Shown here piece after piece: positions 4,913 to 49,488 of a DNA stretch of 64,000 bases; position 1 is the first letter of the stretch, and the number at the start of each line of letters is the position of its first letter. Under the pieces are notes generated by a model. The model was given only the letters and a program-made list of their open reading frames with translations, had not been told where the DNA came from and ran no database searches. Source of the stretch: an uncultured Actinomycetota bacterium (GTDB lineage: Bacteria; Actinomycetota; UBA4738; HRBIN12); assembly GCA_963733635.1 (NCBI GenBank), contig CAVTEH010000005.1, forward strand, positions 760 through 64,759. Direction: 5' to 3'. Both the position numbers and the translations under genes were made by a program.

Positions 4913-5362
4913 TCACATCGATGCCGAGGCGATCGGTTCGAGGACGAACACGGGGATCTGCCGGGTCGTCTTCGTTTGGTAGTTCGCGTAGTCGGGCCAC
5001 GCGTCGACCGCGCGCTCCCACCAGAGGGCCTTCGCCTCACCGGAGACCTCGCGAGCCGTGTAGTCGCGCTTCGTCGCGCGGTCCTGCAGCTCGACATGCG
5101 GGTTCGCCTTCAGGTTGTGGTACCACATCGGATGCTCCGGGGCGCCGCCGAGCGACGCGACCACCGCGTACGTGCCGTCGTGTTCGACGCGCATCAGCGG
5201 GGTCTTGCGGAGCTTGCCGGTCCTCGCGCCGACGGAGGTCAGCACGATCACGGCGCGCCCCATCATGTCGCCGCCCTCCTCGCCGTTGGTCGCCTCGTAC
5301 CCCTCGACCTGCTTGCGCACGTAGCTTGCCGTGCTGGGTTCGTACTCACCGGTCAGTGGCAT
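4913..5362 (-). CDS. Deazaflavin (F420)-dependent nitroreductase family protein (Ddn-like)
   Basis: [50 protein letters not shown]. Confidence 0.9.
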
Positions 5363-5735
5363 ATCGATCTCCTGTCAGGCTTCGGCCGCCGCGCTCCGTA
5401 GACTTCTTCGCCGGCAACGATCCCGCGTACCTCGTGCCGATGCGGACCCATTTCTCGAGCTGGCGCTTCGTGCGGACGCCCTCGGTGTCCACCCGGAGCC
5501 AGCCCACCATCGAGCGGCCGCGCATCTCCATCGGTCGCGCGGCCGTCGTAGCAACGAGCTTGTCAGAGTCTGCCGGGTCGGCGCGCACCAACAGACCGCC
5601 CTGTCCGCTCGCCGCGACCGCCATGTTCCCGCCGATCAGGAACGCGAGCCCCCCGAACATCTTCTGCTCGGTCACGGCGGCATCGCCGGGGAGCAGCTGG
5701 CGGATGCGGTCAGCGAGGTCTTCGTCGTAAGCCAC
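5346..5735 (-). CDS. TfoX/Sxy N-terminal domain protein
   Basis: [12 protein letters not shown]...[18 protein letters not shown]...[14 protein letters not shown]. Confidence 0.85.
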
Positions 5736-6351
5736 GACCCGATGATACGGAGCAGCGCCGACGAGGAGCGTCCCTTCACGATGCGGTAGCGGATGTGCGT
5801 CGCGAGCGGTCGGTCGACGACCTCGATCGGCTCGAGCTGGAGGTGCCCGATGCCCATGTCCTCGAACATGCGCGTCCCACTCCCGAACAACACCGGCACC
5901 AGGTGGATCTGGATCTCGTCGACCAGCCCTGCCGCGATGAGCTCCCGTCCCAGCCGGGCGTCGCCGACGACCACGACGTCCTGCTCGCCGGCGTGTCCTT
6001 CGCTTGCTGCACCGCGGACTCGATGCCGTCCGTCACGAAGTGGTATACGCCGTTCTCCGGTGACTCCGCCGGCGCCTCGTGTGTCACGATGAACACGGGG
6101 ATCCGCTCGGCACCGCTCGGTCCGTCGGCGCCGCACCAGGGGAGTGAGTGGTCATACGTCACGCGACCCACGATCGTGGCGCCGCCATGGCCCATCGCGT
6201 GCTCGGCGTACTCCCGATCGCGCGGACCGGAGCTGAACCCCCACTCGTGCAGCTGCTCGCCACCCTTGCCGAGCGGCTCCTTCGGCGTCTGCTCGGATGC
6301 GGTCATGAACCCGTCCAGCGACATGCTCGTCTGGAAGATCACGCGTCCCAT
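5672..6351 (-). CDS. Dihydrofolate reductase-like / RibD C-terminal domain protein (frameshift near 6000; 3' end uncertain)
   Basis: SMSLDGFMT, GRVTYD, GLVDEIQIHLVPVLFGSGTRMF, ATHIRYRI. Confidence 0.85.
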
Positions 6352-6682
6352 GTATCCCTCCTTGTCCGCAGCAGTCCGCTGCAGACTAGCTTCGGCCCTG
6401 ACGCCGTTGCCGTGCGAGTTCGTTCCCGAGGGACGCTGCCCGGTGGGGCGGGCGTGGTGATGTACCCACCGTCGCGACACGGTGGGTCGCGCTCGCTGGG
6501 TCTATCAGCCGCGGTCCTCGGCGCCCGGGAACAGGGCCATAAAGCAGTCGTACACGAACAATGGATCACGGCGGCGGCCTTGGCGTACGACCGGCAGCCG
6601 GAAGAGCTGGTCGAGCAAGGCCAAGGCGTGCGGGGCTCGCTTGCCGCTCGGAGATCAGGCCCCGATCTCCTTCGGTGGTGGC

Positions 6683-7318
6683 CTAACCGAGGTCAGGCCA
6701 CGGGGCGACGTCGACCTCGTTGCCCTCGGCGTCGGCCAGGGTCCACCACTGTGGGGCCTCGTCCCGCACGACATGACCGCCCGCCGCGAGCGCTGCCGCG
6801 ACGCGGGCCTCCGCTTGGTCGTGCGGCACGTAGAGATCGATGTGGATGCGGTTTCGTTGGGGGCGCGGCGCATCCATCTGCTGGAACCAGAACGGCGGTC
6901 CCTGCATAAGGGCGTCCTGCACGTCCTCATCACCCACTTCCTGGTAGCCGAGCACGGCCCGCCAGAACGGCAGCACCTCAGGGATGACGAGGGCGTCGAT
7001 CGCGATCTGAACGGTCTGCAGGCCAGTTGGGTCGATGGACACGCCCAGCTCGCGTGCCGCCGATGAGATCTGTCCAGCCAGCGCGACGTCACGCTCGCTG
7101 AACTCACCGACGTTGTTCGAGCTCAGACGCACCGTCACGCCCTCCGAGCGCAGATCGACGTCGGGGTGACGGGTGGCCACGTCGGCTAGTCGAGCGATCG
7201 CGTCCACCAGTTCGGCGCCCGCCGCGAACGACCCGGTGCGGAAGTGCGCGCACGCGGCGTCCCTTATGACCCGCCAGTCGCTCTCGTGGAACCGCTGCGG
7301 TGAGATCCGCTCGGTCAT
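6683..7318 (-). CDS. Pterin-4a-carbinolamine dehydratase-like domain fused to a VOC/glyoxalase domain
   Basis: N-half HPDVDLR..VTVRL...SERDVALAGQIS; C-half FWRAVLGY, RNRIHIDL, WWTLADAEGNEVDV. Confidence 0.85.
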   Translation of the reverse strand: MTERISPQRFHESDWRVIRDAACAHFRTGSFAAGAELVDAIARLADVATRHPDVDLRSEGVTVRLSSNNVGEFSERDVALAGQISSAARELGVSIDPTGLQTVQIAIDALVIPEVLPFWRAVLGYQEVGDEDVQDALMQGPPFWFQQMDAPRPQRNRIHIDLYVPHDQAEARVAAALAAGGHVVRDEAPQWWTLADAEGNEVDVAPWPDLG

Positions 7319-7349
7319 CGGCTCAGCATCCCGGCCGCTCGACGTCCGG

Positions 7350-7490
7350 TCAGTCTCCGGCGGCCCAGGCGATCGCCTGTGCACGCTCGGCGACCAGGAG
7401 GCGCTTGAGCTCGGTAGTCGGAGGCTTAGATCTCACCCGTGCCCTCGAAACCCAAGACACCCTCAGGCAATCTGCGATCGGCTCCAGCAT
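7350..7490 (-). pseudogene. Probable remnant of a SpoIIAA-like (STAS/SEC14) gene
   Basis: With one frameshift reads MLEPIAD-LPEGVLGFEGTGEI*ASDY, like the family N-terminus; then degenerates. Confidence 0.4.
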
Positions 7491-7548
7491 GTCCTCGAGC
7501 CTACCGCGGTTCGCGTACGTCTCGGCTGGTCCTAAGATGCAGAGCGAG

Positions 7549-8271
7549 ATGACTTCTCGGCTCGACGCCCTCTGCTTCGATGCGAACGATCCGCTCCGGC
7601 TCGCGCTCTTCTGGGCCGCCGCGCTCCGGTGGGAGGTCGACGACGAGGACCAGGATGTGATCGAACTCGTGCCGACGGATGGCATCAGGTTCGGGATCCT
7701 CTTCCTGGCGGCTCCGAAATGAGAAGATCGGGCGCGAACCGGCACCATCTCGATCTGACGACGACGTCACTCGACGACCAGAGCGGAACGGTCGAGCAGC
7801 TGATCGAACTCGGCGGCCGCCACATCGACATCGGTCAGAGCCCGGACGACGAGCATGTCGTGCTCGCCGACCCCGAAGGCAACGAGCTCTGCATCATCGA
7901 GCCGACCAACAACTTCCTCGCCGACTGCCCACGCATCGGAGCGATCAACGGCGACGGTTCGCAGGAGGTGGGGTACTTCTGGAGTGCCGCGCTCGGATGG
8001 CCGTTGGTCTGGGATCAGGACCAGGAAACCGCGATCCGGGCGCCGGACCGCACCGGTCCCATGATCACCTGGGGCGGTCCACCGGTCGCGCCGAAGCACT
8101 CGAAGAACCGGCTCCATCTCGACATCGCTGCCCACCGACGGTGACCAGCGAGCGGAAGTCGATCGGCTCATCTCGCTCGGGGCGGCTCGGGTCGACATCG
8201 GCCAAGGCGATGTTGACTGGGAGGTCATGGTCGATCCCGATGGCAACGAGTTCTGCGTGCTGAGCTCCTGA
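7549..8271 (+). CDS. Two-domain VOC/glyoxalase family protein (frameshifts)
   Basis: FDANDPLRLALFWAAAL, NRHHLDL, VLADPEGNELCII, KNRLHLDI, VMVDPDGNEFCVL. Confidence 0.9.
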
Positions 8272-8272
8272 G

Positions 8273-9138
8273 TCACCTCGGTCCGACGAGGTACCACGTC
8301 TCCATCTCGCCCTTGCCCTTGACCGGGATCGTGCCTCGCGGCGTGCAGACGAACGCGTCCTTGATCAGCTCGTACGTCGCGCGCGTGATCTGGATCTCGC
8401 CGGGTGTGCCGTTGGACTCCATGCGACTCGCCGTGTTCACGACGTCGCCACAGAGGTCGTAGATGAAACGCTTCGTGCCGATCACGCCCGCCGTGATCGG
8501 CCCGGAATTGATGCCGATCTTTAGCTCGAGATCATCCGGTCCGGCGATCGCCGAGGTCGCGATCGCTGAGCGGCGAATGACGCGAGGACCGTGAAGGCCA
8601 CGGCGCCGGTCCCGATCACGTTGAGCGCCAGCATCGTGTTCGTGAACCAGATCGGGACGTCAACGTCGGGGAAGAACAGCTCGCCCACGATACCCAGCAG
8701 AACGAACGCTGCCATGAACCCGACGAACCACCAGATCGCCTGGCGCACCTCCAGGAAGACGAGCGCTCCGAGTGGAGCCAGGATCCCCCACAGCCCGACC
8801 CCGCCCGCCGGCAGGAACCCGCCCGAGACCATCTGCCCGAGCGCCGTCATGAGCAGGACGTCGAGGAGCTGCGTGACCAGGAACGGCATGAAGCTCTCGG
8901 TCTTCGCGAAGACCACCAACGAGCCGACCGAGATCGCGAGGTACATGAATGGCAGGATCCCCACCGGCGACCCGAACGCGAGGTACGCGCAGCCCCACAC
9001 CACCGACACAGGCAGGATCAGGACCGCAAGCAGGACCAGGAGTGACTTCTTCTGCCGCAGGTCGTCGTCGTCCTGCGGGTCCGAACCGATCTTGCCGATC
9101 CGCACGGCCGCTCGTGCCGGCACCCCCATCGGGCGCAT
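8273..9138 (-). pseudogene. Membrane-anchored class III adenylate/guanylate cyclase with internal deletion
   Basis: Multi-TM N-terminus joins near 8560 directly to LELKIGINSGPITAGVIGTKRFIYDLCGDVVNTASRMES; first half of the catalytic domain is missing. Confidence 0.75.
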
Positions 9139-40875: not shown

Positions 40876-41443
40876 ATGCGACGTTCGTTGATCGCGGCCC
40901 TGCGGATGCTCCTGGTCCTGACGGTGCTGCTCGGCATCGCCTATCCCGTGGCGATCACCGGGATCGGCCAGGGCCTGTTCGGCGCCCGCGCCGACGGCAG
41001 CCTCGGTCGAGGTCGGATGGAACCGTCGTCGGGTCCGAGCTGATCGGCCAGGCATTCGAAGGGCCGGAGTGGTTCACCGGCCGGCCCGACGCCTACGACC
41101 CGCCGCGAGCGCCCCCTCCAACCTCGGTCCGACCAACCCCGAGCTGGGCGCCGCGGTGCAGGAGCGCGCTCGCCGCCGATCACGGAGGCCGACGCACCCG
41201 AGGGTTCGCATCCCGGTCGACGCCGTCACCGGCGGCGGCAGCGGGATGGACCCGCACATCAGCCCCGCCTACGCCATGCTGCAGGCGCCCCGCGTCGCCG
41301 ACGCGCGCGGGCTCGAGCTGGGCCAGGTCACCGCACTGATCGATGACCACACCGAGGGCCGGACCCTCGGGTTCATGGGTGAGGCGCGCGTGAACGTCCT
41401 GCTGCTCAACCTCGCCATCGAGGGGCTAGCCTCGCAGCCATGA
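40876..41443 (+). CDS. kdpC: K+-transporting ATPase subunit C (frameshifts)
   Basis: [60 protein letters not shown]. Confidence 0.9.
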
Positions 41444-43930
41444 AACGCGGCGAGCTCCGCATCTACGTCGGGTACGCGGCCGGGGTCGGCAAGACCTTCG
41501 CGATGCTCGGCGAGGGGCATCGCCGGCGAGACCGGGGCACCGATGTCGTCGTGGGGTTCGTCGAGACCCACGGGCGGCCGCTGACGGCCGAGGCGCTGGG
41601 CGACCTCGAGGTGGTGCCCAGGCGCTCGATCGAGTACCGGGGATCGGCGTTCGAGGAGATGGATGTCGACGCCATCGTGGCCCGGGCCCCCGAGGTCGCG
41701 TTGGTGGACGAGCTCGCCCACACGAACGTGCCGGGCTCACGCAACGAGAAGCGCTGGCAGGACGTGCACGAGATCCTGGATGCCGGCATCGACGTCATCT
41801 CCACGGTCAACATCCAGCACCTCGAGTCGCTGAACGACGTGGTCGAGCGCATCACGGGCGTCCTTCAGCGCGAGACGATCCCGGACGAGATCGTGCGGGC
41901 GGCCGATCAGCAAGAGCTGATCGACATGACGCCGTACGCGCTCCGCCGCCGCATGGCGCACGGCAACATCTACCCGCCCGAGAAGATCGACGCCGCGCTG
42001 GGCAACTACTTCCGCGAGGGCAACCTGGGTGCGCTGCGCGAGCTGGCCCTGCTGTGGATGGCGGACCGGGTCGACGAGTCCCTGCAGGACTACATGAAGG
42101 AACGCGGGATCGAGGGTCCGTGGGAGACGCGCGAGCGCATCTTGGTCGGGATCTCGGGACGTCCCGACGACGAGATGCTGATCCGTCGCGCCGCGCGCAT
42201 GGCGGCGCGTCGAGGCGGTGACCTCATCGCGGTCAACGTGATCCCCGAGGACGGCCTGGCGGAGCCGGGCACGATCGAGGCGACCCGCGAGCTCGTGCGG
42301 TCGCTGGGTGGGACCTTCCGCGATGTGATCGGCCGAGGCGTGCCGGAAGCGCTGCTCGACGTCGCCCGCGCCGAGAACGTGACCCAGATCGTGATCGGCG
42401 CCAGCTCGCATTCGCGATGGCGGGAGTTCTTCCGAGGTTCGGTCGTGCATCGCATCATCCGCGATTCCGGGGCGATCGACGTGCACGTGATCAGCCAGGA
42501 CACGCCGTCATCGGGCGAGAGCCTGGGCGCGCCGCCCACGCCGGGACTCAGCCTGAACCGGCGGGTCGCCGCGACGCTGGCCGGGAGCTGCCGGGCTCGT
42601 GCTGCTCACGATCGCCTTGACCGCCCTGAGGGAACAGCTGGGGCTTCACGAGCGTCATGCTGCTCTATCTCACGCTGGTCGTGGGCGTGGCCGCGGTCGG
42701 TGGGCTGTGGCCGGCGGTGGCCTCGGCCCTGGCTTCGGGGCTGCTGATCAACTGGTACTTCACGCCTCCGATCCACACGTGGACGATCGCCGAGGCCGAG
42801 AACGTCCTGGCGATCGTGGTGTTCGTCTTCGTGGCCTCCGTGGTCAGCGTGCTGGTCGATCGCGCCGCTCGCGCGCGAGCCGAAGCGCAGCGGGGCCGGG
42901 CCGAAGCCGAGGCGCTGGCGCGGCTCTCCGGCTGGCTCGCCGCCGAGGAGGACCCGCTTCCGACGCTGTTGGTGCAGCTGCGTGACACGTTCGGCTTGCA
43001 GGCCGTCTCGGTGCTCCGTCCCCACGAGCAGGGCTGGGTGCTGGAGGCGTCCGCCGGCTCGAACCCTCCGGCCGAGCCCGCCGAGCGGTTCCGATCTGAT
43101 CGAGCTCAGCGACGGCGCCGTCCTGGTGCTGCGGGGCGATCGCCTGCCGGCAGAGTCGCGCCGGGTGCTGACTGCGCTTCGCCGCCCACATGGCGGTGGC
43201 GGTCCGCGCCAGCGATCTCAGCGAGGAAGCGGCCGAAGTGGCCGAGCTCGTCGAGGTCGACGAGCTGCGCACGGCGATCCTGCAAGCGGTCTCCCACGAT
43301 CTGCGGACCCCACTCGCCTCGATCAAGGCGGCCGCCAGCAGCCTCCGCCAGGACGACGTCCCGTGGAGCGCCGACGAGACCGGCGAGTTCCTCGCCACGA
43401 TCGAGGAGGAGACCGACCGGCTGAGCGTGATGGTGGGCAACCTCTTCGACATGAGCCGGATCCAGAGCGGCGCCCTGCATCTGGTCTGCGGCCGAGTCGG
43501 ACTGGACGAGGTCGTGCCGCGCGCGCTCGCGAGCCTGCCCGACAACGGGCGGTCGATCGAGACCGACGTGCCCGAGAGCCTGCCTCGGGTCGACGTCGAC
43601 GCGGCGCTGCTCGAGCGCGCGATCGCGAACGTCGCCGGCAACGCGGTGGCGTGGACGCCGCCGGGCAAGCCGGTCCGCATGATCGGCTCCGGCGTGTCCG
43701 GCAGGGTCGAGCTCCGCGTGGTCGACCGAGGGCCGGGCATCGCTCCATCCGACCGCGACCGCGTGTTCGAGCCGTTCCAGCGGCTCGGCGATCGCTCGAC
43801 TGCCGATGGGGTCGGACTCGGACTGGCCGTGGCCAAGGGCTTCGTCGAGGCGATGGGAGGCGAGCTCGCGATCGAGGACACGCCGGGCGGCGGCCTCACG
43901 ATGGTGATGTCGTTCGCGGAGGCGCCATGA
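41440..43930 (+). CDS. kdpD: Full-length osmosensitive K+ sensor kinase KdpD (frameshifts)
   Basis: GYAAGVGKTFAML, VDELAHTN, Usp-like domain, DUF4118 TMs, VSHDLRTPLASIK, HATPase G boxes. Confidence 0.95.
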
Positions 43931-44615
43931 CCCGGGTGCTGGTGGTCGACGACGAGCCGCAGATCCTGCGGGGGCTGCGCACCAACCTGCGTGCCCGTGG
44001 GTACGAGGTCGAAACGGCGGCCGACGGCGAGACCGCGCTCGACCTGGCGGCCGGCCGCCTCCCCGACATCATGATCTTGGACCTCGGCCTGCCGGGCATC
44101 GACGGCATCGAGGTGATCCGTGGGATCCGGGCGTGGAGCGCGATGCCGATCATCGTGCTCTCGGCCCGCGAGCAGGAACCCGAGAAGGTCGAAGGCCCTC
44201 GACGTGGGCGCGGACGACTACGTCACGAAGCCGTTCGGCATGGACGAGCTGCTCGCGCGGCTGCGCGCCGCGGAACGGCGGAGCGCGCCCACCTCCGACC
44301 AGCCGTCGATCGACGACGGATTCGTTCGTGGTCGATCTGGCGGCCAGCGCGTGCGGCGCCCCGGCGCCGACGACGTGCACCTCACGCCGACCGAGTGGCA
44401 CCTGGTGGAGATCCTCGTCCGCAATCCGGGCAAGCTGGTCAGCCAGCGCCAGCTGCTCGCACGAGGTGTGGGGTCCCCGCTACGAGGACGAGACCAACTA
44501 CCTCCGCGTGTACATGGCCCAGATCCGGCGCAAGCTCGAGCCCGACCCCACCCATCCCCGCTACTTCATCACCGAGCCCGGCATGGGCTACCGCTTCGAA
44601 GGAGAACACCCATGA
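43927..44615 (+). CDS. kdpE: OmpR-family response regulator KdpE (frameshifts)
   Basis: VLVVDDEPQI, LDLGLPGIDG, VHLTPTEW, NYLRVYMAQIRRKLE, TEPGMGYRF. Confidence 0.9.
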
Positions 44616-45356
44616 ATAGCAGGCAACGCACCATCGCCGGCTATGCGCTGGCGGTTGTCGGGACGGCGGCGCTCGTTGCCATCTTCATCCAGATCCGCGA
44701 CGACATCGATCCGGTAAGCAAGGGGTTCGGGTTCCTGGTCCTGGTGGTGGCCGTGGTGGCGGTTGGCGGGTTGGGACCAGGCATCGCGGCAGTCCGTGCT
44801 GGGGTTCGCCGTCTTCAACTACTTCTTCCTGCCGCCGTACGACACGTTCCAGGTCAGCAAGTCTGACGATGTCGTCGTGCTGTTCGTGTTCCTGGGCGTC
44901 GCGGCGCTGATCTCGCGTCCTGATCGCCCGCGCCGACGCGCGAGCGCGATCGGCGGAGGAGCGGGCCGCGGAGCTCCGCTTGCAACAGGACCTGAGCCGC
45001 GCGCTGGTGGAGCCGCAAGGCGATGCGGATCGCTACGGCGGCGTGCTGCAGGCTGGTCGTGACGACGTTCCGGTTCGAGGACGGGGCGCTTGTTCGAACA
45101 ACCCGGAGCCGACCTGGCCGGGCTGGTGGAGATGTCGGTCGTCAACGCGTCACCGGGCTCGATCCCATTGACCGCGGGGGAGGGGGTCGAACGGTTCCCG
45201 TTGAACGTGGGACGGCGGAACCTGGGGCTGTTGGTGCTCCGTGGATTCCGACCGGAGCTCGATGCGTCGGAGCGGCGCATCCTGGAAGCCTTCGGCAATC
45301 AGCTGGCGCTGTTGCTGGAACGTGATCGGGTGCTCCGCGCAGCGATCACGAAGTAG
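44612..45356 (+). CDS. KdpD-like DUF4118 membrane plus GAF-like protein with no kinase domain (frameshifts)
   Basis: LVLVVAVVAVGGLGPG, FNYFFLPPYDTF, LGLLVLRG...ERRILEAFGNQLALLLERDR; stops before any H-box; ATGA overlap with kdpE. Confidence 0.8.
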
Positions 45357-45367
45357 TCTGGACTGGA

Positions 45368-46088
45368 CTAGCCGCCCACGGTGGAGGCGCCGTCGATCCC
45401 GTCGCCCGGCAGGCCACCGGAGGTTTCGCCCACCACCGCATCGCGCAAGGCCCTCTCCGAGGGAGCGCTGGCCAGTGCCAAGACTTCGTCGCCGGCCGAC
45501 AGGACGGTCTCGGGCTGTGGGATGACGACGTGGCCTTCACGCAGGATGCCCACCACCGCGGCATCGGCGGGGAGCCGCAACTCGTAGATGGCCTTGCCGA
45601 CCGAAGGAGAACCGTCGGGCAAGGTCATCTCGACGATCGACACGCGTCCACCTTCCAGGCGGATCAGACGCACCAGGTCGCCGACCGTGACGGCCTCCTC
45701 GACCATGGCCGTCAGGATGTGCGGCGGCGACACAGCGGCGTCCACGCCCCACTGCTCGGTGAACAGCCACTCGTTCTTCGGGTGATTCACGCGCGCCAGC
45801 ACCCTGAGGCACGGCGAATTCCTGCTTGGCCAGCAACGAGGTGACCAGGTTGTCCTCGTCGTCACCGGTGGCCGCGACCACCACCTCGGCGTTCGCCATG
45901 TCGGCCCCTTCCAGGACCGATGGCTCGCACGCGTCCCCGAAGACGACGGTGACGCCGGGCGCCCAGCTCCGAAGCTTGTCCGACAGGTCCCGTTCCTGTT
46001 CCACGAGCGACACGTCATGTCCGCGCTCGGCCAGGTCGACGGCCAGATGCCGTCCCACCGCTCCGCCGCCCGTCACGATGACCTTCAT
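45368..46088 (-). CDS. trkA: TrkA/KtrA-type RCK K+ regulatory protein (CeoC-like; one frameshift)
   Basis: GGGAVG, GDACEPSVLE, ATGDDEDNLV, ARVNHPKNEWLF; TrkA-C domain. Confidence 0.9.
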
Positions 46089-46751
46089 CTAGGCTGCTCT
46101 CCGGCGGGCGCGGCGATCATGTCGTCCAGGGTGTCGGTGCCGTCCTTCGTGAGCATGACGACCAGGAAGTCGCCGGCCTGCAGCGAGCTCTCGTCGGTCG
46201 GGAGGAATCCGCCTCCGCCCCGGGAGACGCCGGCGATCAGGATCTTGCCCTCCACGTTGAGCCCGGACGGCTTGGTGCCGACCAGATGCGCCGGTACCGG
46301 CGACGCGCATGCGCAACAGGTCGCCGCCCCCCAACGACTCCCGGATCTCCGCCCGGTCGTGGAAAAGCATGAGCTGGATCTGCTTGATGCCCCACGTGGT
46401 GGTCGCCACGGTCGGGATGTTGAGTCGCTCGTAGATCTCGGCGCGTCGTGGGTCGTAGATGCGCGCGATGACCTTGGGCACGTGGTACATCTCGCGCGCC
46501 ACCCGTGCCGACACGATGTTGGAGTTGTCACCGCTCGAGACCGCCACGAAGGCGTCGGCGTCCTTGATTCCGGCTTCCTCCAGCACGTCGCGATCGAACC
46601 CCAAGCCCACCACGGTCTTGGTCCCCTCGCCCGGCTGATACCGATAGAACGCCTCGGGATCCTTGTCGATCATCGTCACGTCGTGCTCACCGACCAATTG
46701 GCTCGACAGCTCCGAGCCGACCCGGCCGCAGCCCATGATGATGACCTTCAT
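46085..46751 (-). CDS. trkA: TrkA/KtrA-type RCK K+ regulatory protein (CeoB-like; one frameshift)
   Basis: MKVIIMGCGRVG, GFDRDVLEEAGI, SSGDNSNI, ARIYDPRRAEIYERL. Confidence 0.9.
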
Positions 46752-46803
46752 GACGGCGTAGCCTACCCATCCTCGTTTGACCTGGCACCGTACCGAGCGC
46801 AAC

Positions 46804-47274: not shown

Positions 47275-47313
47275 CGTGAAGGATCGCGGGCTCGTCGTGA
47301 AGATCGCGTGAAA
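47275..47313 (+). promoter_or_regulatory. Candidate KdpE-type tandem direct repeats upstream of the second kdpD-like operon
   Basis: CGTGAAG (47275), CGTGAAG (47296), CGTGAAA (47307); 21- and 11-bp phasing. Confidence 0.5.
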
Positions 47314-47353: not shown

Positions 47354-48805
47354 ATGGGGCAGGGATCGTCCGACATCGAGAGCCGTCCGTGGCGCGGTCT
47401 CACGCTCCGCGGGGTGTTCTTCGCCGTCGTCTCGCCTGCGGCGGCAGCGGTGGCCTCGATCCCGTTCGGGCGATCCGGGACCCGCGTCGGCCATCTCGCT
47501 GTTCCTGCTGGCGATCGTGATCGCGGCGGTGGCGGGTGGCCTGTACGCGCGGGCTCATCGCCGCCCTGCTCTCGTCCTTCGCGCTGCCGTTCCTCTTCGG
47601 ATCGCAGCGGTTCCGCCTGCGGCTGGACGGCACCGAGGAGATCGTGACCGCCATCGTCTTCTTGTCCGTAGCGGTGGTGGTGGGATCTGCTCGTGGGCGG
47701 CGCCGCCGACGAGCGTGCCAGGGCGGCCCGGCACGAACGTGAGTCCCGATTGCTCGGAACCCTGTCGTCCACGCTGCTGTCGGGCGAGGTGCCCGACCGC
47801 GTCCTCGATGACTTCGCTTCAGTGCTCTTGGAGCCCTTCGGCCTGTCGAAGTGTGAGATCACGGTCGAGCTGGACGGCACGCAGCTGGTCGCACGCTCAT
47901 CGCGCCCGGAGCTCGAGTCCGGAGGGCCCGACGCGGTCGTTCCGTTGGTGGCGGGGACGGTCGCGTTCGGCACGCTGCGGGTCGAGCGGCCCCGAGGCCG
48001 TCGCGCCCTCAACGCCGACGAGCTGCTGCTGCTGGAGGCCGCCGCCAGGCAGGCCGCGGCGGCGCTGGACCGTGCTCGCTTGGACGCCCGCGCCCGCATG
48101 GCTCAGCTCGACGCCGAGACCAACCAGCTGCGTGCCGCCATGTTCAGCTCGGTGACCCACGACCTGCGCACGCCGTTGGCATCGATCAAGGCGGGCGTCA
48201 CCAGCCTGCTCGACCCCAGCGTCGAGTACGACACCGTCCAGGAGACCGAGCTGCTCACCACGATCTTGGAGGAGACCGACCGGCTGAATCGATTGGTGGG
48301 CAACATCTTGGACCTGGCGCGGATCCGCGCCGGTGCCCTGAGCCCGGTCCGCAGCGACTCGTCGTTGGAGGAGACCTTGGAAGCGGTCGTGGCCCGCATG
48401 CGGCCGCGCATCGACCTCGTGACCGTGGACCTGACCATCAGCGACGACATGCCCGACGTGCCGGTCGACGGCGTGCAGATGGACCAAGTGCTCACGAACC
48501 TGCTGGAGAACGCGGCGCGCTATGCACCCGCCGGCTCCACGGTGCGGGTCTCGGCGCAGGTGGTCGGTGACCGGGCGCAGGTTCGCGTGGTCGATCAGGG
48601 CCCCGGGGTTCCGGAAGACGACCGCGAGCGGGTGTTCGAGGCGTTCTATCGCGGCGAGCGGAGTCCGGAGATGCCGGGCAGCGGGCTCGGGCTCGCGATC
48701 GCCAACGCTATCGTGACCGCCCATGGCGGCCGCATCTGGATCGACGATGCGAGTCCGGGAGGCACGGCGGTAGTGTTCGAGATCCCGATCGAGGGGCCCC
48801 GATGA
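47354..48805 (+). CDS. KdpD-like sensor kinase lacking the N-terminal KdpD and Usp domains (frameshifts)
   Basis: DUF4118-like TMs, GAF-like segment, SVTHDLRTPLASIK, QVLTNLLENA, GSGLGLAIA. Confidence 0.9.
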
Positions 48806-49488
48806 GTTTGGTGCTGGTGGTCGATGACGAACCACAGATCCGCCGCGCCTTGCGCACCAGTCTGGAGGCACACGGCTACCAGGTCTCCACGGTCGGTACG
48901 GGCGAGGAGGGTGTGGTGGGTGCGGCGGACCAGGATCCGGATCTCCTGCTCCTCGACCTCGGCCTTCCCGACATCGATGGCACCGAGGTGATCCGGCGCG
49001 TCCGAGGGTTCTCCGATGTGCCGGTCATCGTGCTCTCGGTGCGCGAGAGCCAGAGTGACAAGGTGGCGGCCCTCGATGCCGGCGCCGACGATTACGTCAC
49101 GAAGCCGTTCGGTATGGAGGAGCTGCTCGCACGAGCACGAGCGGCGATGCGTCGCAAGCAACCGGAAGAACCCGCCATGCCGGTGCAGACCTTCGACGAT
49201 CTCGAGGTGGATCTCGCTCGCAGGCTGGTGAGCCGGGGCGGCGAGCAGGTGCACCTGACGCCCACCGAATACGGCCTGTTGGAGGCGCTGGTGACGAACC
49301 CTGGCAAGTTGCTCACCCACCAGTGGCTCTTGCGGAAGGTCTGGGGCCAGGGCTACGGCACCGAAACCACCTACCTCCGGACCTACGTCCGCGCGTTACG
49401 CAAGAAGCTGGGCGACGACGCACAGGCGCCCGGCCTCATCGTCACCGAGCCCGGCGTCGGATATCGCTGGGTCGCCGAGGCGGACTGA
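48802..49488 (+). CDS. Second KdpE-like OmpR-family response regulator
   Basis: VLVVDDEPQI, GADDYVTKPFGMEELLAR, VHLTPTEY, GKLLTHQWLL, TEPGVGYRW; intact 228 aa. Confidence 0.92.
   Translation: MSLVLVVDDEPQIRRALRTSLEAHGYQVSTVGTGEEGVVGAADQDPDLLLLDLGLPDIDGTEVIRRVRGFSDVPVIVLSVRESQSDKVAALDAGADDYVTKPFGMEELLARARAAMRRKQPEEPAMPVQTFDDLEVDLARRLVSRGGEQVHLTPTEYGLLEALVTNPGKLLTHQWLLRKVWGQGYGTETTYLRTYVRALRKKLGDDAQAPGLIVTEPGVGYRWVAEAD

What the first reader, a model, noticed from the sequence alone, without database searches (positions are those of the whole stretch)
44612..45356. Kinase-less KdpD-like membrane protein coupled to kdpE
Seen: an ORF of about 245 aa with DUF4118-like TMs (FNYFFLPPYDTF) and a GAF-like segment. 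It ends at LERDRVLRAAITK*, where the helix leading to the H-box starts in KdpD. It is translationally coupled to kdpE (ATGA) and stops 11 bp from the convergent trkA stop. Inference: it may be a sensor-only partner that modulates or bridges the two kinases in the locus, rather than a remnant.
Basis: partly seen in the sequence, partly recalled or inferred. Interest (0 to 1): 0.62.

Follow-up and report, generated by a model that had tools for sequence, protein, structure and literature searches.

The report
Kinase-less KdpD-type sensor protein
The window holds a real, conserved gene for a ~246-residue membrane protein that is only the potassium-sensing half (four membrane helices plus a GAF domain) of a KdpD-type kinase; its frame is broken four times here by assembly errors, and its function is untested.

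Summary
There is no intact ORF at 44612-45356. The span is 745 nt and carries four single-base insertions relative to a 98%-identical relative. The whole window shows such indels about once per 168 nt, even in topA, and the genome scores 55% complete, so this is assembly noise. Removing the four bases gives a 246-aa protein, 241/246 identical to the intact orthologue.

The gene is real. It has a full DUF4118 four-helix domain and a GAF-fold domain, and it stops about 21 residues before the position of the H-box histidine in its nearest kinase relatives.

Kinase-less homologues (237-294 aa) form one well-supported clade in at least three genera of uncultured Actinomycetota. The clade sits among split-type short KdpD kinases, and dN/dS is about 0.13. 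The gene is usually the last gene of a kdp operon (ATGA or GTGA overlap with kdpE in 13/15 loci) and abuts a convergent trkA pair.

It persists in genomes lacking the Kdp pump and full-length KdpD, so "bridging two kinases" cannot be its general role. It is not a remnant or a truncation. The likeliest function (inferred) is a transmitter-less K+-sensing module acting through protein contacts. It is a new variant of a known kind.

The parts
44612..45356 (+). Gene for the kinase-less KdpD-type TM+GAF protein (true length 741 nt, 246 aa). Here its frame is broken by four 1-nt insertions.
   Evidence: dropping bases 44793, 44917, 45048 and 45088 gives a clean ORF, 241/246 identical to the G008 orthologue
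44642..44964 (+). DUF4118 four-helix transmembrane domain (residues 11-117)
   Evidence: Pfam PF13493 E 1e-23, full length. PDB 2KSF (KdpD TM domain) E 1e-6. AF2 helices 3-27, 34-52, 54-71 and 84-132.
44968..45353 (+). Linker helix plus reduced GAF-fold domain, ending in the conserved helix ...QLALLLERDRVLRAA (residues about 119-246)
   Evidence: AF2 pLDDT 87.8. Foldseek top hits are all GAF domains: 3CIT TMt 0.65, KdpD GAF 4QPR/4Y2F TMt 0.61-0.63. GAF_3 is sub-threshold.
44793..44793 (+). Inserted base 1 (frame +1); probable assembly error
44917..44917 (+). Inserted base 2 (frame +1); probable assembly error
45048..45048 (+). Inserted base 3 (frame +1); probable assembly error
45088..45088 (+). 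Inserted base 4 (frame +1); probable assembly error
43927..44615 (+). kdpE (response regulator). Its TGA stop overlaps the ATG of the small gene (ATGA at 44612-44615). It is itself broken by 4 indels here.
   Evidence: The overlap is conserved in 13 of 15 loci with kdpE upstream.
41440..43930 (+). Full-length kdpD (KdpD N-terminal, Usp, DUF4118, GAF, HisKA, HATPase), split over frames by 4 indels
45368..46088 (-). trkA (RCK) gene b, convergent on the small gene; the two stops are 11 nt apart
46089..46802 (-). trkA (RCK) gene a
47354..48805 (+). kdpD2: short KdpD-type kinase (DUF4118, GAF, HisKA, HATPase; no N-terminal domain). About 30% identical to the small protein in the shared region.
48802..49488 (+). 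kdpE2, the response regulator paired with kdpD2; intact in the window

Best explanation
SHOWN: 44612-45356 encodes a transmitter-less member of the KdpD sensor lineage. It has a four-helix DUF4118 membrane domain, a long linker helix and a small GAF-fold domain. It stops at the start of what is the DHp helix in kinases. It has no HisKA, no HATPase and no KdpD-N/Usp domain. The four frameshifts in this window are assembly errors, and the underlying gene is intact.

The family is one clade that groups with 'split-type' short KdpD kinases (TM/GAF/DHpCA). That points to one ancestral loss of the kinase core. A deletion running from the DHp helix through the response regulator would also explain why the gene abuts the convergent trkA pair: some kinase-bearing loci read kinase-RR -> <- trkA. 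The family has been kept under purifying selection in at least three genera of uncultured soil Actinomycetota. It is usually the last, translationally coupled gene of a kdp operon.

INFERRED (mechanism, about 35-40%): in KdpD the TM and GAF parts are the proposed K+-sensing sites (PMC11018627), and both are conserved here together with the signalling helix. The protein therefore most likely still responds to K+ and acts by protein-protein contact, not by phosphotransfer. The most likely form is hetero-oligomerisation with a KdpD-family kinase of the same cell (KdpD2, KdpD or the split-type kinase), shifting that kinase's kinase/phosphatase balance. Where the gene is co-transcribed with kdp, this would make a feedback loop.
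For: Errors:
- Four 1-nt insertions against 98%-identical G008 DNA.
- 198 non-3n indels in 33 kb, one per 168 nt, 72% of them insertions; topA has 11, kdpB 11, kdpA 8.
- About 4.4 are expected in 745 nt and 4 are observed.
- The genome scores 55% complete in 10 contigs, while the G008 genes are intact.
- The corrected ORF is 246 aa.

Architecture.

Conserved end.

Family:
- At least 120 clusters of 237-294 aa carry PF13493 only.
- Of 79 genome loci, 34 are kinase-less and convergent on trkA, and 41 are fused to a kinase core.
- The kinase-less forms make one clade, SH-aLRT 99.
- The clade occurs in g1 (29/37 genomes), g25 and g39.

Selection: omega is 0.07-0.2 for close pairs in both halves. 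The median is 0.13, no higher than for the same region of the kinases.

Operon linkage: ATGA or GTGA overlap with kdpE in 13/15 loci; the start lies 4-24 nt after the kdpC stop in 5 loci.

Background: K+-sensing sites lie in TM/GAF and split KdpD forms exist (PMC11018627). The KdpD GAF domain is a protein-docking surface for PtsN1 in S. fredii (PMC9239096).
Against: - No interaction or K+-binding test was possible, so the mechanism is inference only.
- The small protein is only about 30-37% identical to the TM-GAF parts of KdpD and KdpD2 in its own genome, and the signalling helices differ, so heterodimerisation is not implied by sequence.
- Its one near-constant neighbour is the trkA pair, not a kinase.
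- Two lineages carry it outside any K+ locus.
- Some complete genomes of the same genus lack it (G225 and G237), so it is dispensable.
- No shared K+-promoter motif was found upstream where the gene has its own promoter.
Confidence: 0.55

Rival explanations
1. The protein is a K+-responsive membrane partner of K+ transport proteins, not of kinases. It would anchor or gate the TrkA (RCK) pair, which has no TrkH/KtrB pore nearby, or the KimA-type permeases, giving post-translational control of uptake.
For: The trkA pair lies convergent within -15 to +19 nt in 31 of 34 kinase-less loci. KimA-type permeases are present in 31 of those 34 loci and are divergent from the gene in 8. The gene persists in Kdp-less genomes that keep trkA, kdpD2/E2 and kimA.
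Against: Convergent genes are not co-transcribed. The adjacency to trkA can be historical, because kinase-bearing relatives also read kinase-RR -> <- trkA (L072, L088, L094). L042 and L052 lack trkA nearby. No precedent is known to me for a DUF4118/GAF module binding RCK proteins.
Confidence: 0.2
2. The membrane/GAF module has taken on a role unrelated to K+ signalling, for example as a homo-oligomeric membrane protein with another ligand. Its K+ neighbourhood would then be only inherited synteny.
For: It occurs in an unrelated context in L042 and L052. It is absent from some complete genomes of the genus. No K+-promoter motif lies upstream where it has its own promoter.
Against: 20 of 34 loci place it as the last gene of a kdp operon with start/stop overlap or a tight junction. 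Nearly all motifs shared with the K+-sensing kinases are retained.
Confidence: 0.15
3. The copy in this organism is a true pseudogene: the four frameshifts are real, and the gene is decaying in this strain.
For: The deposited sequence does carry four frameshifts. Reads could not be checked.
Against: The gene's indel density equals the window background (4 observed, 4.4 expected). Indispensable genes such as topA carry 11. Apart from the indels the gene differs from G008 by only 5 residues and has no stop once corrected. The genome scores 55% complete.
Confidence: 0.04
4. It is a truncated or mis-assembled full-length histidine kinase (assembly break, or recent deletion of HisKA/HATPase).
For: The nearest paralogues (42-59% identity) are about 500-aa kinases.
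Against: The same end point, followed directly by the trkA stop, is seen in more than 30 species on long contigs, including megabase-scale contigs. The kinase-less forms make one clade under purifying selection.
Confidence: 0.01

Closest known systems
Split-type KdpD histidine kinase (the TM/GAF/DHpCA chain of two-polypeptide KdpD systems; Silberberg et al. 2024, PMC11018627)
   Same: It has the same DUF4118 + GAF module, 42-59% identical with nearly all motifs shared, including ...QLAL(L/V)LERDRLLR. The two group together in the tree, and both sit in actinobacterial kdp loci.
   Different: These chains continue into HisKA (H-box SHDLRSPL) and HATPase_c and are followed by a KdpE-type regulator. 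The protein here stops about 21 residues before the His and has no catalytic domain.
Escherichia coli KdpD (PDB 2KSF TM domain; 4QPR/4Y2F GAF domain)
   Same: The TM domain matches by sequence (E 1e-6) and the GAF domain by fold (TMt 0.61-0.63, rmsd 3.8-3.9 A). The protein corresponds to about residues 395-650 of KdpD.
   Different: It has no KdpD-N/Usp N-terminal half and no DHp-CA transmitter. It scores 32 bits against the 1123-bit cut-off of the KdpD equivalog model.
KdpD versions with truncated DHpCA (Campylobacterota, Archaea) and KdpD/Usp-only versions (e.g. Deinococcus), as surveyed in PMC11018627
   Same: They are natural KdpD-family proteins that have lost histidine-kinase activity.
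   Different: Those keep the N-terminal KdpD serine-kinase domain, which gives them an output. This protein has neither kinase activity and consists of the sensing part alone. A TM/GAF-only chain is not among the classes described in the text read.
Small membrane modulators of sensor kinases (e.g. ScrA-SaeS, PMC12239555, title and abstract only; MgrB-PhoQ, from my own knowledge)
   Same: This is a functional analogy only: a non-catalytic membrane protein that tunes a histidine kinase by contact.
   Different: Those are unrelated small peptides or proteins, not paralogues of the kinase's own sensor domain. No interaction has been shown here.

Membership tests
KdpD sensor histidine kinase | Four-helix transmembrane domain (Pfam DUF4118) | tested here: met
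   PF13493 83.5 bits (cut-off 28.4), profile 1-107/107. 2KSF E 1e-6.
KdpD sensor histidine kinase | Cytoplasmic GAF domain after TM4 | tested here: met
   By fold: the AF2 model (pLDDT 87.8) matches GAF domains, including the KdpD GAF 4QPR/4Y2F. By sequence it is only sub-threshold: GAF_3 23.7 bits against 27.
KdpD sensor histidine kinase | HisKA/DHp domain with the phospho-acceptor histidine | tested here: not met
   No HisKA hit, while the class-B relative and KdpD2 both score. The protein ends about 21 residues before the aligned His.
KdpD sensor histidine kinase | HATPase_c catalytic domain | tested here: not met
   No hit. Only 11 nt separate the stop from the convergent trkA stop.
KdpD sensor histidine kinase | N-terminal KdpD (PF02702) and Usp domains | tested here: not met
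   The protein starts 10 residues before DUF4118. PF02702 is found only in the separate full-length kdpD.
KdpD sensor histidine kinase | NCBIfam equivalog NF007793 score at or above the cut-off | tested here: not met
   32.2 bits against a cut-off of 1123; the match covers only model positions 395-553.
Stand-alone DUF4118+GAF clade (kinase-less 'class A') of uncultured Actinomycetota | Length about 240-295 aa; ends shortly after the LERDRxLR helix; falls in the clade with SH-aLRT 99 | tested here: met
   The corrected window protein is 246 aa and 241/246 identical to the G008 member. G008 (L018) lies inside the clade. Ends.
Pseudogene (real decay) | Frame-breaking lesions in excess of the neighbouring genes, or relaxed selection | tested here: not met
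   4 indels observed against 4.4 expected from the window-wide rate of 1 per 168 nt; topA has 11; family omega is about 0.13. Reads could not be examined.

The most novel reading that the evidence does not exclude
The family is a free-standing, transmitter-less K+ receptor. It would be the TM/GAF sensing core of KdpD released as its own protein, reading K+ and controlling K+ uptake (KdpD-type kinases and/or the TrkA/KimA transport proteins) purely by direct binding, outside any phosphorelay. That would be a mode of K+ homeostasis control not described so far, and a naturally minimal construct for finding out how KdpD senses K+.
Probability: 0.3. Interest if true: 0.7.

Novelty: new variant of a known kind. 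Interest (0 to 1): 0.45.

Why it matters
How KdpD senses K+ is still debated, and the proposed sites lie in the TM and GAF parts (PMC11018627). A natural, selected protein made of exactly those parts would be a minimal object for structural and binding studies. If it regulates kinases or transporters by contact, it would add a non-phosphorelay layer to bacterial K+ homeostasis.

For the scan itself, the main practical lesson is different. This genome's assembly carries about one frame-breaking indel per 168 nt, so every ORF-level oddity in it (split genes, 'truncations', odd lengths) must be checked against relatives before it is interpreted.

Tried and rejected
I used comparison with G008 and window-wide indel statistics instead.
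2. Programmed frameshifting or recoding: rejected. There are four separate +1 events at unrelated sequence contexts, at the same density as in all neighbouring genes.
3. Shared promoter motif: the CGTGAAG repeats with 21/11 spacing are conserved upstream of kdpD2 in 11/11 loci. No phased repeat is conserved upstream of the small gene in the 8 loci where it has its own promoter, so there is no evidence of co-regulation by this route.
4. Kinase-less forms outside the clade: short hits in the exhaustive search end at scattered points inside the DHp helix or H-box, as contig-end fragments do. This is not counted as independent kinase loss.
5. Dependence on Kdp: rejected. Four genomes lack KdpB and the KdpD N-terminal domain yet keep the gene.
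6. Literature: three searches found no description of a TM/GAF-only KdpD paralogue. That is absence from the searched library, not proof of absence.
7. The antisense ORF 44819-45298 (159 aa) is a high-GC artefact: the third-position GC signal follows the + strand frames.

Full report
OBSERVATION.
The stated range 44612-45356 is 745 nt, which is not a multiple of three. The ORF listing shows no ORF spanning it, only overlapping pieces in three frames.
- Three-frame translation and third-position GC show one coding signal on the + strand that steps through frame phases 2, 0, 1, 2, 0.
- Joining the pieces gives a 257-residue composite with a full-length DUF4118 match (E 2e-23) and a sub-threshold match to the end of GAF.

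WHY THE FRAME IS BROKEN.
The window's genome has 10 contigs, 3.05 Mb, and scores only 55.5% complete.
- A same-genus genome, G008 (94% complete), has the whole locus intact: kdpD, kdpE (228 aa), a 246-aa DUF4118 protein ending ...LERDRVLRAAITK*, and two trkA genes.
- Over this gene the two DNAs are 98% identical and differ by exactly four 1-nt insertions in the window, at about 44793, 44917, 45048 and 45088. None is in a homopolymer.
- This is not special to the gene. Across 33 kb of synteny there are 198 indels that are not multiples of three, one per 168 nt. 72% are insertions in the window and only 30% sit next to an identical base. They hit kdpA (8), kdpB (11), kdpD (4), kdpE (4), kdpD2 (3), both trkA genes and topA (11).
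- About 4.4 would be expected in 745 nt, and 4 are observed.
- Dropping the four bases gives a 741-nt ORF whose product is 241/246 identical to G008.
- Most related loci come from 'MFD...bin' long-read soil MAGs.

I conclude that the frameshifts are assembly errors.

THE GENE IS REAL, AND ITS END IS NATURAL.
- In 11 same-genus genomes with an intact frame, the protein stops 0-12 residues after the motif LLLERDRxLRAA.
- A search restricted to similar lengths finds 216 proteins. The best 120 are all 237-294 aa with Pfam DUF4118 only. They come from uncultured Actinomycetota and are annotated 'DUF4118 domain-containing protein' or auto-labelled KdpD.
- Thirty-five of them align with strong conservation along the whole length, including the C-terminal half (VER.PLNVGRRNLG, ERR.L.AF.NQLAL.LERDR.LR).
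- Short hits outside this group in the exhaustive search (16,128 relatives, 50 below 1e-30) end at scattered points inside the DHp helix. They are contig-end fragments.

ARCHITECTURE.
- Pfam gives DUF4118 at 83.5 bits and GAF_3 at 23.7 bits (cut-off 27). There is no HisKA or HATPase_c, while a class-B relative and KdpD2 score for both.
- The NCBIfam KdpD equivalog matches only model positions 395-553, at 32 bits against a cut-off of 1123.
- The PDB profile search hits the KdpD TM domain 2KSF (E 1e-6) and, weakly, the end of the KdpD GAF domain 4QPR.
- The AlphaFold2 model (pLDDT 87.8) has four membrane helices. The fourth runs on as a long cytoplasmic helix, followed by a helix, four strands and a long C-terminal helix.
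- All top Foldseek hits are GAF domains: 3CIT TMt 0.65, and the E. coli KdpD GAF 4QPR/4Y2F TMt 0.61-0.63.
- Aligned with its nearest kinase relatives, the protein ends 2-4 residues after LERDRxLRAA. The kinases continue ...TATDAEVYRQTERLRQTLLAAVSHDLRSPL, so the stop lies about 21 residues before the phospho-acceptor His.

CONTEXT AND ORIGIN.
Of 79 loci from species-representative genomes:
- 34 are kinase-less and followed directly by the convergent trkA pair.
- 41 have the same module (42-59% identity) fused to a HisKA/HATPase core followed by a KdpE-type regulator. Forty of these are divergent from kdpA, mostly with a separate KdpD N-terminal gene beyond kdpC. This is the 'split KdpD' form described by Silberberg et al. 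(PMC11018627).
- 4 are odd cases.

Upstream of the kinase-less gene lies kdpE (15 loci), kdpC (5), a divergent KimA-type permease (8) or nothing recognised (6).
- The ATGA or GTGA overlap with kdpE is kept in 13 of 15 loci. After kdpC the start follows within 4-24 nt.
- The 3' ends of the gene and of trkA lie -15 to +19 nt apart in 31 of 34 loci.

In a maximum-likelihood tree of the shared region, all kinase-less sequences form one clade (33 rows, SH-aLRT 99). That clade sits in a poorly resolved group with the split-type kinases, and KdpD2 and full-length KdpD lie outside. This was a quick search without bootstraps.

Some kinase-bearing loci read kinase-RR -> <- trkA (L072, L088, L094). A single deletion from the DHp helix through the regulator would therefore produce the present arrangement, and the adjacency to trkA may be historical.

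Across the 294 genomes of this class, the kinase-less form is in genus g1 (29 of 37 genomes), g25 and g39, and possibly g73. Some complete g1 genomes lack it.

SELECTION.
For close pairs (dS 0.1-0.6), dN/dS is 0.07-0.2 in both the membrane half and the GAF half. The median is 0.13, against 0.48 for the same region of the kinases. The kinase figure is probably inflated by saturation of synonymous sites. Either way, constraint on the kinase-less genes is not relaxed.

FUNCTION.
Nothing here tests function directly. Three results constrain it.
1. The gene does not depend on Kdp. G011, G013, G016 and G018 have no KdpB orthologue (best P-type ATPase hits about 33% identical, against 88-100% for true KdpB) and no KdpD N-terminal domain. 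They still keep an intact, selected copy next to trkA-trkA, kdpD2-kdpE2 and kimA. So 'bridging the two kinases' cannot be general.
2. In two lineages the gene sits among unrelated genes.
3. No K+-promoter-like phased repeat is conserved upstream where it has its own promoter.

In KdpD the proposed K+-sensing sites lie in TM/GAF (PMC11018627), and the KdpD GAF domain is a protein-docking surface in S. fredii (PMC9239096). Both domains and the signalling helix are conserved here. On that basis I favour a transmitter-less K+-sensing module that acts by contact.
- Action on a KdpD-family kinase: about 35-40%.
- Action on TrkA/KimA: about 20%.
- Some other role: the remainder.

COMPARISON AND NOVELTY.
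The protein works like, and descends from, the sensor half of KdpD-type kinases. It fails the defining kinase features (no DHp His, no HATPase, no KdpD-N), so it is not a KdpD.
- The survey in PMC11018627 lists full-length, split, KdpD/Usp-only and DHpCA-truncated forms. All of them keep an enzymatic domain, and a TM/GAF-only chain is not described there.
- Three literature searches found no description of one.
It is not independent evidence.

VERDICT.
It is a new variant of a known kind, of moderate interest. The copy in this window is ordinary apart from assembly damage.

Noticed in passing
window 25674-61282 (and probably the whole genome): The assembly carries about one frame-breaking indel per 168 nt relative to the intact relative G008 (143 insertions, 55 deletions). 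Nearly every long gene is split, including topA. Genome completeness is only 55%. Any ORF-level oddity in this genome needs checking against relatives.
   Followed up: yes
window 47275-47302 (+), upstream of kdpD2 (start 47354): CGTGAAG direct repeats, spaced 21 nt here (21 and 11 nt in relatives), are conserved upstream of kdpD2 in all 11 related loci examined. This is probably a KdpE2-type regulator box that autoregulates kdpD2-kdpE2-kimA. The heptamer is also over-represented in the window (26 matches against 9.4 expected).
   Followed up: partly
loci L045-L094 (class B), e.g. L046 7827-9446: In many related genera KdpD is split. A TM/GAF/HisKA/HATPase kinase plus a KdpE-type regulator lie divergent from kdpA, and a separate KdpD N-terminal (PF02702-type) gene lies beyond kdpC. 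This matches the split form surveyed by Silberberg et al. 2024.
   Followed up: partly
genomes G011, G013, G016, G018 (loci L050, L063, L035, L027): Members of the same genus lack the Kdp pump and full-length KdpD altogether. They keep the block kimA <-> small gene -> <- trkA trkA <-> kdpD2-kdpE2-kimA-kimA.
   Followed up: yes
L096 8001-8591: A copy of the kinase-less gene (44% identity; it falls in the kinase-less clade) sits between two tandem full-length kdpD genes, upstream of kdpE and trkA.
   Followed up: no
L028 about 5350-8717: A split-type kinase and regulator, then a partial second kdpE-like segment, then the kinase-less gene, all in tandem. This layout would fit an origin by tandem duplication followed by loss of the kinase core.
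   Followed up: no
L027, L033, L035, L038 (3' end of the small gene): The small gene and the convergent trkA overlap by 15 nt at their 3' ends. In most other loci the gap is 0-19 nt, which leaves no room for separate terminators.
   Followed up: partly
G287:C9:66203-66952 and G288:C6:1975116-1975850: In another family of the order (f7, g73) a second, short-frame copy of the module (303-360 aa open frame) lies 2.3 kb downstream of a split-type kinase. It may be another kinase-less member or an independent loss.
   Followed up: no
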